Below, piece by piece: positions 13,113-13,559 of a stretch of 13,930 nucleotides of DNA. The notes below the pieces were generated by a model. It did no database searches. It was not told the origin of the DNA and was given only the letters and a program-made list of their open reading frames with translations. Position 1 is the stretch's first letter; every line of letters begins with the position of its first letter. A program made the position numbers and the translations under genes. Origin of the DNA: a virus (Duplodnaviria > Heunggongvirae > Uroviricota > Caudoviricetes); the IMG/VR virus record IMGVR_UViG_3300015157_000063, positions 1-13,930 of that record; one strand, 5' to 3'.

Positions 13113-13199
13113 TCACCACCAACGGATTGCCCAGACCAGAACAGCAATGGCCACAATACGAATGGCAAATGCCATTGCCCGAATAAGTTCAGCACTCAT
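13113..13199 (-). CDS. 28-aa hydrophobic peptide ([28 protein letters not shown]), paralogue of the C-terminus of the upstream ORF
   Basis: Stop overlaps the Rz start; aligns with DISRALAFAIKWVAVGIAV of 13211..13333 with mostly synonymous DNA differences. No clear Shine-Dalgarno. Confidence 0.3.
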
Positions 13200-13210
13200 C
13201 TTTTTAAAGT

Positions 13211-13461
13211 TCACGATTTCAGCGCAATGACCAGTTTTGCCAGCCCATACAGCATCGGAGACACAGCAATACCAACAGCCACCCACTTAATAGCAAAAGC
13301 CAGCGCTCTGCTGATGTCATCAGTCACTGTCACCCCAGCAGCCCCGACGAAGACAACATCACCCAGGCGAGGGACAGAAAAAGAGCAACCAGCATTAGTG
13401 AAAATGAAATACCGACAATCACACACAGGACCTTTGCCGGCGTTATGAGTTTGTCTGACAT
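13211..13461 (-). pseudogene. small membrane protein (~83 aa if joined), split by a frameshift at a G4 tract near 13333
   Basis: ATG at 13461 with AAGGGG Shine-Dalgarno gives MSDKLITPAKVLCVIVGISFSLMLVALFLSLAWVMLSSSGLLG-stop; the adjacent frame continues VTVTDDISRALAFAIKWVAVGIAVSPMLYGLAKLVIALKS. A one-base change in GGGG would join them. Confidence 0.35.
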
Positions 13462-13463
13462 AG

Positions 13464-13559
13464 CTACCCCTTAATTGCCACAATTAACTGGGATACTACC
13501 CATAAAAAAGGGATGCTCCAGACCAGCAAAAATTTCCAGTTTGGTAATTGACTAATCAT
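13464..13559 (-). CDS. 31-aa hydrophobic peptide (MISQLPNWKFLLVWSIPFLWVVSQLIVAIKG)
   Basis: Internal ATG of ORF 13464..13676 with GGGAG 9 nt upstream; the longer ORF N-terminus overlaps the terminator at 13635-13664. Confidence 0.3.
   Translation of the reverse strand: MISQLPNWKFLLVWSIPFLWVVSQLIVAIKG

What the first reader, a model, noticed from the sequence alone, without database searches (positions are those of the whole stretch)
13113..13559. Row of tiny hydrophobic ORFs, including a diverged internal duplication, between endolysin and Rz
In lambda-type cassettes R is followed directly by Rz. Here ~640 bp intervene, holding a terminator and three or four short transmembrane-like ORFs of 28 to 43 codons. 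Two encode alignable peptides (DISRALAFAIKWVAVGIAV vs [19 protein letters not shown]) whose DNA differs mostly at synonymous positions, which argues that both are, or recently were, translated. Two adjacent pieces are separated only by a frameshift at a GGGG run. Candidates are a holin/antiholin-like or P2 LysA-like membrane gene in decay, or a set of small membrane peptides.
Basis: partly seen in the sequence, partly recalled or inferred. Interest (0 to 1): 0.6.

Follow-up and report, generated by a model that had tools for sequence, protein, structure and literature searches.

The report
Tiny membrane-protein gene cassettes before Rz
Between the cell-wall-cutting gene and the outer-membrane-breaking genes of this E. 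coli prophage lie four real genes for very small membrane proteins of unknown function, carried on small mobile cassettes that recur in many related prophages and may have their own antisense RNA switch.

Summary
On the minus strand, 642 nt separate the R stop (13754) from the Rz start (13111). They contain a strong hairpin terminator and four short hydrophobic ORFs.

All four show a coding signature: pN/pS is lowest in the annotated frame. They belong to recurrent prophage families listed only as "unknown function":
- ORF1 family, about 45 aa.
- B family, 43 aa (ORF2).
- A family, 48 or 60 aa. ORF3 is a copy lacking its first 10 codons. ORF4 is an old, shortened paralogue.

The idea of one decaying 83-aa gene is not supported. 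A and B occur as separate genes, in either order, in other prophages. Fused forms are rare one-off frameshifts.

The mobile unit is hairpin + leader + small ORF. It follows four endolysin types and precedes three spanin types, and it also occurs in tail operons.

In the ORF1 family, codons 2-6, 10 and 12 never vary synonymously. Read on the opposite strand, they spell a -35, a 17-nt spacer and an extended -10, aimed at the bidirectional hairpin. That predicts a roughly 70-nt antisense RNA over the ORF1 ribosome-binding site, a layout like type I toxin-antitoxin systems.

Function is inferred, not shown. Interest is moderate.

The parts
13631..13663 (.). GC-rich hairpin with an A-run before it and a T-run after it. 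It is an intrinsic terminator readable on both strands and forms the 5' boundary of the small-gene cassette.
   Evidence: Terminator scan. The same hairpin sits at the 5' side of every cassette, in lysis and in tail contexts. Covariation across 25 distinct cassettes shows 5 of 9 pairs with compensatory changes.
13464..13598 (-). ORF1: 44-aa single-pass membrane protein, MIDFSKLIRELRLMISQLPNWKFLLVWSIPFLWVVSQLIVAIKG. TTG start with GGGAGG 5 nt upstream.
   Evidence: phrog_6632, E 1e-12. Homologues of 44-45 aa occur in E. coli, Salmonella, Citrobacter, Klebsiella, Enterobacter, Yersinia and other genera. pN/pS is 0.33 in frame against 0.99 and 2.08 out of frame.
13330..13461 (-). ORF2 = family B: 43-aa single-pass membrane protein, MSDKLITPAKVLCVIVGISFSLMLVALFLSLAWVMLSSSGLLG. 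SD AAGGGG.
   Evidence: phrog_4906, E 4e-21. 29 distinct DNA variants give pN/pS 0.41 in frame against 0.81 and 1.51. In other prophages it lies directly before Rz.
13211..13333 (-). ORF3 = 5'-truncated copy of family A (residues 11-48 of the 48-aa form). Its only possible starts are GTG 13333, overlapping the ORF2 stop as GTGA, or GTG 13327.
   Evidence: Alignment to full-length A, MKNGLELKAPVTDDISRA.... Joint sequence GGGGTGACA|GTGACTGATGAC against canonical ..GCGCCAGTAACTGATGAC. Family pN/pS is 0.19. Read by eye from the sequences, there are 5 synonymous and 0 non-synonymous differences from the full-length A of L242.
13113..13199 (-). ORF4: 28-aa membrane peptide, [28 protein letters not shown]. 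An old, shortened paralogue of family A. Its stop lies 1 nt before the Rz ATG.
   Evidence: Shuffle test p about 0.0002. phrog_4493, E 4e-6. A 45-aa relative exists, P0137. Variants give pS 0.37 and pN 0.12.
13563..13591 (+). Predicted antisense promoter inside ORF1 codons 3-12: -35 TCGCAA (13563-13568), 17-nt spacer, extended -10 TGcTAAAAT (13583-13591).
   Evidence: No synonymous variation at ORF1-family codons 2-6, 10 and 12 in 41 distinct sequences. The spacer codons 7-9 and codons 22-43 vary freely. This is an inference. No expression data exist.
13597..13668 (+). Predicted cis-antisense RNA of about 70 nt. It would start opposite the ORF1 start codon, cover its SD and end at the bidirectional hairpin.
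   Evidence: Fold: a 5' stem-loop whose loop holds CCUCCC, an A-rich linker, and a terminator. MFE -20.8 kcal/mol, z -2.7. No Rfam family matches. This is an inference.
12617..13111 (-). Rz (i-spanin) with Rz1 embedded at 12706..12891. This is the downstream neighbour, tightly coupled to ORF4.
   Evidence: ORF list. Annotated as lysis protein in the 100% identical NCTC86 record.
13754..13930 (-). 3' end of the endolysin gene R (rrrQ-type lysozyme). This is the upstream neighbour.

Best explanation
What the evidence shows. The interval holds four separate genes for tiny single-pass inner-membrane proteins. Two mini-cassettes contribute them. One carries ORF1 and B (ORF2). The other carries family A (ORF3) and ORF4. 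An illegitimate recombination joined them and removed the first 10 codons of A. A cassette consists of a GC hairpin, a short leader with a strong ribosome-binding site, and a small ORF of roughly 45 to 60 codons, sometimes followed by a second small ORF. These cassettes are mobile among temperate phages of Enterobacterales. They land in late operons, most often exactly between the endolysin gene and the i-spanin gene.

What I infer about expression. No sense promoter was found, and the genes are packed against each other and against Rz. I therefore expect them to be made from the Q-antiterminated late transcript, which reads through the hairpin.

What I infer about mechanism.
- The peptides insert into the inner membrane late in infection and act there as accessory, probably membrane-perturbing, modulators of the lysis step.
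- In the lysogen, stray translation of the first gene would be blocked by a cis-antisense RNA of about 70 nt.
- That RNA would start from an extended -10 promoter embedded in ORF1 codons 3-12 and end at the same hairpin, which terminates in both directions.
- This layout resembles type I toxin-antitoxin pairs such as symE/SymR.
For: Real genes:
- pN/pS is lowest in the annotated frame for B (0.41 against 0.81 and 1.51), A (0.19 against 0.43 and 3.6), ORF1 (0.33 against 0.99 and 2.08) and ORF4 (pS 0.37, pN 0.12).
- All four have a transmembrane-grade hydrophobic window.
- They match PHROG families 6632, 4906, 1115, 3246 and 4493.

Modular and mobile:
- Architectures seen include A-B-Rz, ORF1-B-Rz, A-ORF4-Rz, A-B-A'-ORF4-Rz, ORF1-B-A'-B-Rz and B alone.
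- The same hairpin plus leader plus ORF follows a GH24 lysozyme, a GH19, a GH108 or a Peptidase_M15_4 endolysin.
- It precedes Rz (Phage_lysis), DUF2570 plus LysC, or an unclassified spanin pair.
- It is absent from K-12 Qin, where rrrQ overlaps rzpQ.
- It is widespread. 2063 of 5426 complete E. coli genomes match part of the interval and 587 match at least 80% of it.

Late expression and coupling:
- No minus-strand sigma-70 site lies between the hairpin and ORF1.
- Stop-to-start distances are 2 nt (ORF1 to ORF2), an overlap (ORF2 to ORF3) and 1 nt (ORF4 to Rz). The ORF3-to-ORF4 gap is wider, 11 nt.

Antisense RNA:
- 41 distinct ORF1-family genes show zero synonymous change at codons 2-6, 10 and 12. 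Ser5 is always AGC and Arg12 always CGA, while Arg43 uses 5 different codons.
- The invariant blocks coincide with a -35, a 17-nt spacer and TGnTAAAAT on the opposite strand. The only variable base falls at -10 position 4.
- Start codons are almost always GTG or TTG.
- The hairpin has an A-run and a T-run in every context and shows compensatory changes.
- The predicted RNA has an sRNA-like fold.
- A-type cassettes carry TATACT or TATAAT at the equivalent antisense position, including a divergent tail-located copy.
- PasB of EPEC is a validated Hfq-bound sRNA with an analogous layout in a late operon (PMC8550237).
Against: - There are no expression, toxicity or lysis-timing data for any of these genes.
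- The antisense -35 is weak (3 of 6). An extended -10-like string alone is expected by chance about once per kilobase per strand, by my own estimate from base frequencies. The argument therefore rests on the conservation pattern.
- Part of that pattern (GAG at codon 10, ATG at codon 14) could instead serve an internal SD and start.
- Family members also sit in tail or baseplate operons: Citrobacter L262, Yersinia L269, Salmonella L270 and L256. This weakens a lysis-specific role.
- Phage lambda (from general knowledge of its map) and K-12 Qin have R running straight into Rz with no such genes, so the peptides are dispensable for lysis as such.
- ORF3 has no proper start and may be untranslated.
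- No known type I toxin, holin or defence family matches.
Confidence: 0.5

Rival explanations
1. The peptides are lysogenic-conversion ("moron") proteins. They would be made in the lysogen, sit in the inner membrane, and protect the host, for instance by blocking DNA entry of superinfecting phages as HK97 gp15 does.
For: - They are extra DNA relative to related prophages.
- The ORF1 part has lower GC, 0.39-0.42 against 0.5-0.6 in the flanks.
- The cassettes move between unrelated late-operon sites, including tail regions where gp15-type morons sit.
- The membrane-spanning segments diversify rapidly.
- gp15 is a small inner-membrane exclusion protein (PMC3594210).
Against: - No sense promoter was found after the hairpin.
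- The terminator lies upstream rather than downstream of the gene.
- The genes are tightly coupled to the next late gene.
- Nothing matches YebO/gp15 in Pfam or any PADLOC model.
Confidence: 0.2
2. The peptides are dedicated lysis-timing regulators. They would work like antiholins or P2 LysA, or bind the transmembrane helix of the pinholin, the SAR endolysin or Rz. They would have no toxin-like activity and no antisense control.
For: - The position between endolysin and i-spanin recurs with four endolysin types and three spanin types.
- The stop codon lies 1 nt before the spanin start.
- P2 lysA occupies the same position. This point comes from general knowledge of the P2 lysis cassette.
Against: - Copies also sit in tail and baseplate operons.
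- Copy number ranges from 0 to 4, with truncated copies.
- No similarity to any holin or antiholin family was found.
- The B versus Rz transmembrane-helix resemblance is not supported by profile comparison (probability 2.7%).
- This reading leaves the invariant synonymous sites unexplained.
Confidence: 0.2
3. One reading: ORF2 and ORF3 are two halves of an 83-aa membrane gene, holin/antiholin-like or LysA-like, broken by a frameshift at the GGGG run and now decaying.
For: - One extra G at about 13333 would fuse the two frames.
- 83-aa proteins exist in databases, P0001-P0005.
- ORF3 does lack a start of its own.
Against: - A and B are independent genes with their own starts in most prophages, and in the order A then B.
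- The fused database proteins join at different upstream points and occur on only 1-2 contigs each.
- The frame that would continue ORF3 upstream through ORF2 has pN/pS 1.51.
- The GGGG run is identical in more than 140 assemblies.
- No holin family matches the 83-aa product.
Confidence: 0.03
4. The invariant 5' block of the ORF1 family is not an antisense promoter. It would instead be a sense-strand translation element, namely an internal SD (GGAG in codons 9-10) plus ATG at codon 14. That would give two products from one gene, as in holin/antiholin dual starts. Alternatively it could be a recombination linker.
For: - GGAG is kept 9 nt before the invariant ATG14.
- 31-32-aa forms are annotated in several genomes, P0166, P0175 and P0181.
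- Conserved module boundaries are common in mosaic lambdoid phages. This point is general knowledge.
Against: - An internal SD does not explain why ATT GAT TTT AGC AAA (codons 2-6) and CGA (codon 12) never vary.
- It also does not explain why the variable bases fall exactly in the promoter spacer and at -10 position 4.
- A simple linker would not be flanked on both sides by unrelated leader types and variable membrane-spanning segments.
Confidence: 0.25

Closest known systems
Type I toxin-antitoxin pairs with a cis-antisense RNA over the toxin's ribosome-binding site (symE/SymR, hok/Sok, ibs/Sib)
   Same: - The first gene of the cassette encodes a hydrophobic single-helix peptide of under 60 aa. 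This resembles Hok and Ibs. SymE is not a membrane peptide.
- The start codon is weak.
- The predicted antisense promoter lies just inside the ORF.
- The predicted RNA is about 70 nt, covers the SD and start codon, and ends at an intrinsic terminator.
- These systems are common in prophages.
   Different: - No match to any known type I toxin family or to Rfam.
- The toxin gene has no promoter of its own and rides in a phage late operon, coupled to the next gene.
- Neither toxicity nor the RNA has been demonstrated.
HK97 gp15 and other moron-encoded small inner-membrane proteins (Juhala et al. 2000; Cumby et al. 2012; PMC3594210)
   Same: - Small inner-membrane protein.
- Encoded on extra DNA inserted between late genes of lambdoid phages.
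- Horizontally mobile.
- Deviating base composition.
   Different: - gp15 has its own promoter and a downstream terminator, and it is expressed from the prophage.
- Here no promoter was found and the hairpin lies upstream.
- No sequence relation to YebO/gp15.
P2 LysA and antiholins (lambda S107, S21-71, T4 RI, P1 LydB)
   Same: - They are membrane proteins encoded inside the lysis cassette.
- LysA lies between the endolysin and the Rz-like gene, as these genes do.
- A possible dual start in ORF1 recalls holin/antiholin pairs.
   Different: - LysA is about 140 aa with several membrane helices. The genes here encode 28-60 aa with one helix.
- No sequence similarity was found.
- Members also occur outside lysis cassettes.
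PasB sRNA of EPEC E2348/69 (Pearl Mizrahi et al. 2021, PMC8550237)
   Same: - It is an experimentally validated 83-nt Hfq-dependent RNA.
- It is transcribed against the late operon of a lambdoid prophage.
- It overlaps the start of a tiny ORF and ends at a bidirectional hairpin just after the preceding late gene.
   Different: - It has a different sequence and lies between tail genes I and J.
- The overlapped ORF is 22 aa and not hydrophobic.
- PasB is described as a trans-acting sRNA.

Membership tests
Holins (Pfam holin families) | Sequence match to a described holin family | tested here: not met
   No Pfam or NCBIfam hit at E <= 10 for any of the four peptides, for the 70-aa form or for the 83-aa fusion. 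The PHROG hits are all "unknown function".
Holins (Pfam holin families) | At least one membrane helix plus a highly charged hydrophilic C-terminal tail | tested here: not met
   Each peptide has one hydrophobic window. The C-terminal tails are 2-14 residues with at most one charge.
Holins (Pfam holin families) | Triggered lethal hole formation that releases or activates the endolysin | not testable with these tools
   This needs expression and lysis assays.
P2 LysA-like lysis modulators | Gene lies between the endolysin and the Rz-like gene | tested here: met
   Window layout. The same position recurs with other endolysin and spanin types.
P2 LysA-like lysis modulators | Protein of about 140 aa with several membrane helices (from general knowledge of P2 LysA) | tested here: not met
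   The proteins here are 28-60 aa with one hydrophobic segment each. The 83-aa fusion is not the ancestral form.
Type I toxin-antitoxin systems | Small hydrophobic toxin peptide, under about 60 aa, with a single helix | tested here: met
   Family sizes are 43-60 aa.
Type I toxin-antitoxin systems | Antisense RNA overlapping the toxin mRNA's translation-initiation region | tested here: inconclusive
   Three predicted elements sit in the right places: a promoter, an RNA fold and a bidirectional terminator. The conservation pattern fits them. No RNA data exist and Rfam has no hit.
Type I toxin-antitoxin systems | Membership of a described toxin family (Hok, Ldr, Ibs, TisB, ShoB, Fst and others) | tested here: not met
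   No Pfam or NCBIfam hit at E <= 10.
Type I toxin-antitoxin systems | Growth arrest or killing on overexpression, relieved by the RNA | not testable with these tools
   Experiment needed.
Morons (Juhala et al. 2000) | Extra DNA at a gene boundary when related phages are compared | tested here: met
   K-12 Qin has rrrQ overlapping rzpQ with nothing between them. The content of the interval varies between prophages.
Morons (Juhala et al. 2000) | Own promoter and downstream terminator that allow expression from the repressed prophage | tested here: not met
   No sense-strand sigma-70-like site was found. The hairpin lies upstream of the gene. The consensus scan is crude, so a weak promoter cannot be excluded.
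Morons (Juhala et al. 2000) | Base composition that differs from the flanks | tested here: met
   GC is 0.39-0.42 over 13450-13750, against 0.5-0.6 in R and Rz. This holds only for the ORF1 and hairpin part.
HK97 gp15 / YebO family | Sequence similarity to YebO/gp15 | tested here: not met
   No Pfam hit.
i-spanins (Rz-like) | N-terminal membrane helix followed by a periplasmic coiled-coil domain | tested here: not met
   The peptides end 2-14 residues after the helix. The B versus Rz helix resemblance is not supported (hhalign probability 2.7%).

The most novel reading that the evidence does not exclude
The hairpin-leader-ORF unit is a previously undescribed mobile mini-cassette of about 230 bp, of the type I toxin-antitoxin kind. 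It would pair a small membrane-active peptide with a cis-antisense RNA whose promoter is written into the peptide's first 12 codons. It would spread through the late operons of temperate phages across Enterobacterales and prefer the slot just before the spanin gene. The phage would use it as an extra membrane-damaging step at lysis, silenced in the lysogen. It may also make two products from dual starts.
Probability: 0.3. Interest if true: 0.75.

Novelty: new variant of a known kind. Interest (0 to 1): 0.55.

Why it matters
Lysis cassettes of lambdoid phages are treated as four genes: S, R, Rz and Rz1. This window shows that a large share of E. coli prophages carry one to four additional conserved genes for tiny membrane proteins exactly at the R/Rz joint. 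Some part of the interval is found in 38% of complete E. coli genomes. The same cassette recurs with unrelated endolysins and spanins in several genera, yet no function is recorded for any of these families.

If the peptides tune or add to membrane disruption, they are a missing accessory layer of phage lysis. If they are excluders or toxins, they are a common class of prophage cargo that has gone unnoticed.

The predicted antisense RNA is directly testable. Confirming it would add a new family of phage-borne cis-antisense regulators.

The case is also a warning for annotation. Callers disagree on starts and frames here. Versions of 31, 44 and 70 aa are called for ORF1, and versions of 38, 51 and 90 aa for ORF3.

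Tried and rejected
Database searches that found nothing:
- Pfam, NCBIfam and PADLOC gave no hit for any peptide or for the 83-aa fusion.
- PDB sequence search gave only chance hits with E above 0.2.
- Rfam at E <= 1 on both strands of 11000-13930 gave nothing.
- The scan of one genome per species for family A gave one spurious Bacteroidaceae hit. The families live in prophages that species representatives mostly lack.

Readings I rejected:
- The 90-aa ORF 13483..13211 (phrog_3246-like, called in some records). Its upstream part is frame 2 of ORF2, with pN/pS 1.51.
- The 70-aa version of ORF1 from GTG 13676, annotated as a "TPR_REGION domain" protein in ON470597. It translates the terminator hairpin. 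Relatives start at the GTG/TTG 5 nt after the SD.
- Homology of the B membrane helix to the Rz helix. The pairwise shuffle test gave p 0.015, but hhalign gave probability 2.7%.
- Homology of the ORF1 family to family A. The pairwise test on the C-terminal end gave p 0.009, but hhalign gave probability 0.4%.

Promoters and known RNAs:
- No sense-strand promoter lies after the hairpin.
- A plus-strand CTGACA-18-CACAAT site at 13455-13484 is not conserved in A-B cassettes, and one such site is what chance gives.
- PasB is not the same RNA as the one predicted here. It has a different sequence and only an analogous layout.

Literature: full-text searches for the peptide strings, for genes between R and Rz, for small membrane proteins in lysis cassettes and for prophage sRNAs found no description of these genes.

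I did not run structure prediction. A 28-45-residue single helix would not be informative.
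Full report
**1. What is there**

The window is a lambdoid E. coli prophage. It is 100% identical over the interval to strain NCTC86. The late genes run on the minus strand.

- The endolysin gene R ends with TAA at 13756-13754.
- Rz starts at 13111, and Rz1 is embedded at 12891..12706.
- The 642 nt between them hold a 15-pair GC hairpin with a T-run (13663-13631) and four short ORFs.

The four ORFs:

| ORF | Coordinates (minus strand) | Length | Notes |
|---|---|---|---|
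| ORF1 | 13598..13464 | 44 aa | TTG start, GGGAGG 5 nt upstream.
| ORF2 | 13461..13330 | 43 aa | SD AAGGGG |
| ORF3 | 13333 or 13327..13211 | 40 or 38 aa | GTG starts. The first forms GTGA with the ORF2 stop. |
| ORF4 | 13199..13113 | 28 aa | Stop lies 1 nt before the Rz ATG |

Each ORF has a 19-residue window of Kyte-Doolittle hydropathy 1.9-2.9.

**2. The peptide similarity**

The alignment of ORF3 and ORF4 is reproduced exactly. It scores 47 against 23.2 +/- 4.5 for composition-preserving shuffles (p about 0.0002). Both peptides hit the same PHROG profiles.

Intermediates exist:
- P0109 has the ORF4-like start MSADFIRAVAFAIKW joined to an A-like tail.
- P0137 is a 45-aa form of ORF4.

Over the 19 aligned codons, 9 residues and 32 of 57 bases are identical. 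Synonymous sites are near saturation (pS 0.69) and pN is 0.35. This is an old duplication under constraint, not one that "differs mostly at synonymous positions".

**3. These are genes, in three or four families**

Protein searches returned many relatives.

- ORF2 is family B. It is 43 aa and found in E. coli and Shigella-type prophages.
- ORF3 is family A. Its stand-alone form is MKNGLELKAPVTDDISRAVAFAIKWVAVGIAVSPMLYGMAKLIIAVKS, 48 aa. It becomes 60 aa if read from the upstream in-frame ATG that follows the leader's SD. It occurs in E. coli and Salmonella.
- ORF1 belongs to a sharply defined 45-aa family, M-x-DFSKLIRELR-x-M-x-E-K-LPNWKF, then a helix, then RWW. It is found in E. coli, E. fergusonii, Salmonella, Citrobacter, Klebsiella, Enterobacter, Cronobacter, Yersinia, Serratia and Providencia.

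Using the DNA of several hundred loci, the ratio of protein-changing to silent differences is lowest in the annotated frame for every family:

| Family | Annotated frame | Shifted frames |
|---|---|---|
| B | 0.41 | 0.81, 1.51 |
| A | 0.19 | 0.43, 3.6 |
| ORF1 (E. coli vs Citrobacter) | 0.33 | 0.99, 2.08 |
| ORF4 variants | pS 0.37, pN 0.12 | pS 0.11-0.20, pN 0.17-0.21 (no excess of silent change) |

The 90-aa ORF that some callers report (13483..13211) is the unselected frame 2 of ORF2 in its upstream half. None of the families is in Pfam, NCBIfam, PADLOC or the PDB. PHROGs lists them as unknown function. I found no paper that describes them.

**4. Not a broken 83-aa gene**

In other prophages the interval is built differently. 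Observed arrangements are:
- R-hairpin-A-B-Rz, the commonest alternative.
- R-hairpin-ORF1-B-Rz.
- R-hairpin-A-ORF4-Rz.
- A-B-A'-ORF4-Rz.
- ORF1-B-A'-B-Rz.
- B alone, sometimes with an antirepressor gene inserted upstream of it.
- A row with two further small hydrophobic ORFs (L254).

A and B are thus independent genes, usually in the order opposite to that in the window. In the window, A has lost its first 10 codons and its ribosome-binding site. The joint reads GGGGTGACA|GTGACTGATGAC, where intact A has ..GCGCCAGTAACTGATGAC. The simplest history is an illegitimate join of an ORF1-B cassette to an A-ORF4 cassette.

By eye, ORF3 differs from the intact A of L242 by 5 silent and no replacement changes. 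It has therefore not visibly decayed. Whether it is translated, by re-initiation at the GTGA overlap, is open.

The 83-aa proteins in the databases join at different upstream points and sit on one or two contigs each. The GGGG run is identical in more than 140 assemblies.

**5. The mobile unit**

In every context the first small gene is preceded by the same elements:
- a GC hairpin flanked by an A-run and a T-run,
- then about 35 nt of leader ending in a strong SD, typically GGCAAGGGAGAA,
- then a GTG or TTG start.

Among 25 distinct cassettes, 5 of the 9 hairpin pairs show compensatory changes.

The unit follows a GH24 lysozyme, a GH19, a GH108 or a Peptidase_M15_4 endolysin. It precedes Rz, DUF2570 plus LysC, or an unclassified overlapping spanin pair. 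With Rz and DUF2570 only 1 nt separates the stop from the spanin start. With the unclassified Enterobacter pair the gap is 22 nt.

It also occurs between tail genes I and J in Citrobacter, after the tail-tip region in Yersinia, inside a baseplate operon in a Salmonella prophage, and after tail-fibre genes as an A variant. K-12 Qin has no such insert.

Part of the interval is found in 2063 of 5426 complete E. coli genomes, and the window's arrangement in 587. The ORF1 and hairpin part is lower in GC than its flanks. This is moron-like behaviour, but no sense promoter was found and the hairpin lies on the upstream side.

**6. An extra constraint and what it predicts**

Codon usage in 41 distinct ORF1-family genes is very uneven along the gene:
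- Codons 2-6 (ATT GAT TTT AGC AAA), codon 10 (GAG) and codon 12 (CGA) show no synonymous variation at all. Ser and Arg are six-fold degenerate, and Arg43 of the same gene uses five codons.
- Codons 7-9 and 22-43 vary freely.
- The leader upstream exists in at least four unrelated versions. The invariant block is therefore an island, not a linkage effect.

Read on the other strand, the block gives TCGCAA, a 17-nt spacer made of the variable codons, then TGcTAAAAT, an extended -10. The only variable base, which makes the F/I/L choice at codon 4, falls at -10 position 4 and gives TAAAAT, TAATAT or TAAGAT.

In the window these elements lie at 13563-13568 and 13583-13591 on the plus strand. A transcript starting about 7 nt further on would begin opposite the ORF1 start codon. 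It would cover the SD and stop at the hairpin, which is followed by TTTTT on this strand too. That gives about 70 nt.

The predicted RNA folds into a 5' stem-loop whose loop contains CCUCCC, an A-rich linker, and the terminator (-20.8 kcal/mol, z -2.7). A-type cassettes carry TATACT or TATAAT at the equivalent antisense position, including the divergent tail-located copy.

A small hydrophobic ORF with a weak start codon, overlapped by such an RNA, is the layout of type I toxin-antitoxin pairs such as symE/SymR. That comparison comes from my own knowledge. PasB of EPEC E2348/69 shows that such antisense RNAs exist in lambdoid late operons. It is a validated 83-nt Hfq-dependent RNA that runs against the late operon between tail genes I and J. 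It overlaps the start of a 22-aa ORF and ends at a bidirectional hairpin (PMC8550237 table S6). It is not the same sequence as the one predicted here.

All of this section is inference from sequence. The -35 is weak. Part of the conservation (GGAG in codons 9-10 and the invariant ATG14) could instead serve an internal start that gives a 31-32-aa product.

**7. Most likely working**

- Shown: there are four genes for tiny single-pass membrane proteins, carried on recombining mini-cassettes.
- Inferred with fair confidence: they are expressed from the Q-antiterminated late transcript and coupled to Rz.
- Inferred with less confidence: the peptides act on the inner membrane at lysis time as accessory, probably membrane-perturbing, factors, and the first gene is silenced in the lysogen by the antisense RNA.

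The main rivals are prophage-expressed exclusion proteins of the gp15 kind and plain lysis-timing regulators. The tail-operon copies argue against a strictly lysis-bound role. The missing promoter and the tight coupling argue against classic morons.

**8. Verdict**

"Small membrane peptides" is right and "decaying 83-aa holin-like gene" is wrong. The genes are catalogued but uncharacterised. The cassette structure and the predicted antisense control appear not to have been described. Interest is moderate (0.55). It would be higher if the antisense RNA or a lysis or exclusion phenotype were confirmed.

Noticed in passing
window 13664-13753 (minus strand), between the R stop and the hairpin: About 90 nt directly after the R stop are well conserved among GH24-type cassettes (..gcagaatattttgctgaaaaatg..cggataacacgaaatcctgcgaactg..aagtgaataaaagt). 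They hold no obvious ORF or promoter. This could be a 3'-UTR element of the R message that ends at the hairpin.
   Followed up: no
window 13559 (ATG) with AGGGAG at 13573-13568; ORF1-family codons 9-14 in L258-L354: An SD-like GGAG sits 9 nt before an invariant internal ATG (Met14) in the whole ORF1 family. One gene could therefore give a 45-aa and a 31-32-aa product, which recalls holin/antiholin dual starts.
   Followed up: partly
L254 2862-3411 (E. coli, GCA_030384785.1): Another prophage has a different row of four small hydrophobic ORFs between R and Rz. They are a 50-aa ORF, a 47-aa A variant (MFVDKTENTAH...), a 49-aa ORF (MIKAETTSQGADD...) and an ORF4 variant. The 50-aa and 49-aa ORFs were not assigned to ORF1, A or B, so further small families may use this slot.
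   Followed up: partly
L176 2501-2986 (IMG/VR UViG 2534682060_000017): In a cassette with holin_8, holin_3_7 and a GH108 endolysin, the A-B pair is followed not by an i-spanin but by a lipoprotein gene of about 60 aa (lipobox LVGC; no Pfam hit). No i-spanin was recognised nearby.
   Followed up: partly
L002 (PhiR5_1), L007, and eight IMG/VR loci such as L014, L020, L047, L064: A roughly 700-bp antirepressor (ant) gene is inserted into the 5' part of ORF1. It removes the first codons of ORF1 and, with them, the predicted antisense promoter. The R/Rz slot is thus a general insertion hot spot.
   Followed up: no
L355 1462-1572 (E. coli E2348/69, NC_011601.1 1466261-1466371): The published sRNA PasB lies antisense to the late operon between tail genes I and J. 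It overlaps the start of an unannotated 22-aa ORF (MKINVKELFLLLGQKNTNAAKL) and ends at a bidirectional hairpin. A perfect TATAAT sits about 21 nt upstream of its mapped 5' end.
   Followed up: partly
window 13455-13484 (plus strand): A promoter-like site, CTGACA-18-CACAAT with TG, lies antisense to the ORF1/ORF2 junction. It is not conserved in A-B cassettes, and one such site is what chance gives.
   Followed up: partly
window 11590-12620: Downstream of Rz lie three genes. A 74-aa ORF (12620..12396, minus strand) has no family. A DUF3950 YlcI/YnfO-type gene lies on the opposite strand (11937..12197), so its transcript would run antisense into Rz and the small ORFs up to the bidirectional hairpin. 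An HNH endonuclease gene (11955..11590) sits next to the terminase genes.
   Followed up: no
proteins P0001-P0007: A few complete E. coli genomes carry 79-83-aa fusions of B to the alternative frame leading into A. They join at different points around B codons 28-33. They are probably homopolymer errors or sporadic frameshifts in those assemblies.
   Followed up: partly
L005 about 2093 (E. coli PV0838): One prophage has an in-frame stop inside ORF1 (..VVSQ*IVAIKG) while B and Rz stay intact. ORF1 is therefore dispensable at least in that lysogen.
   Followed up: no
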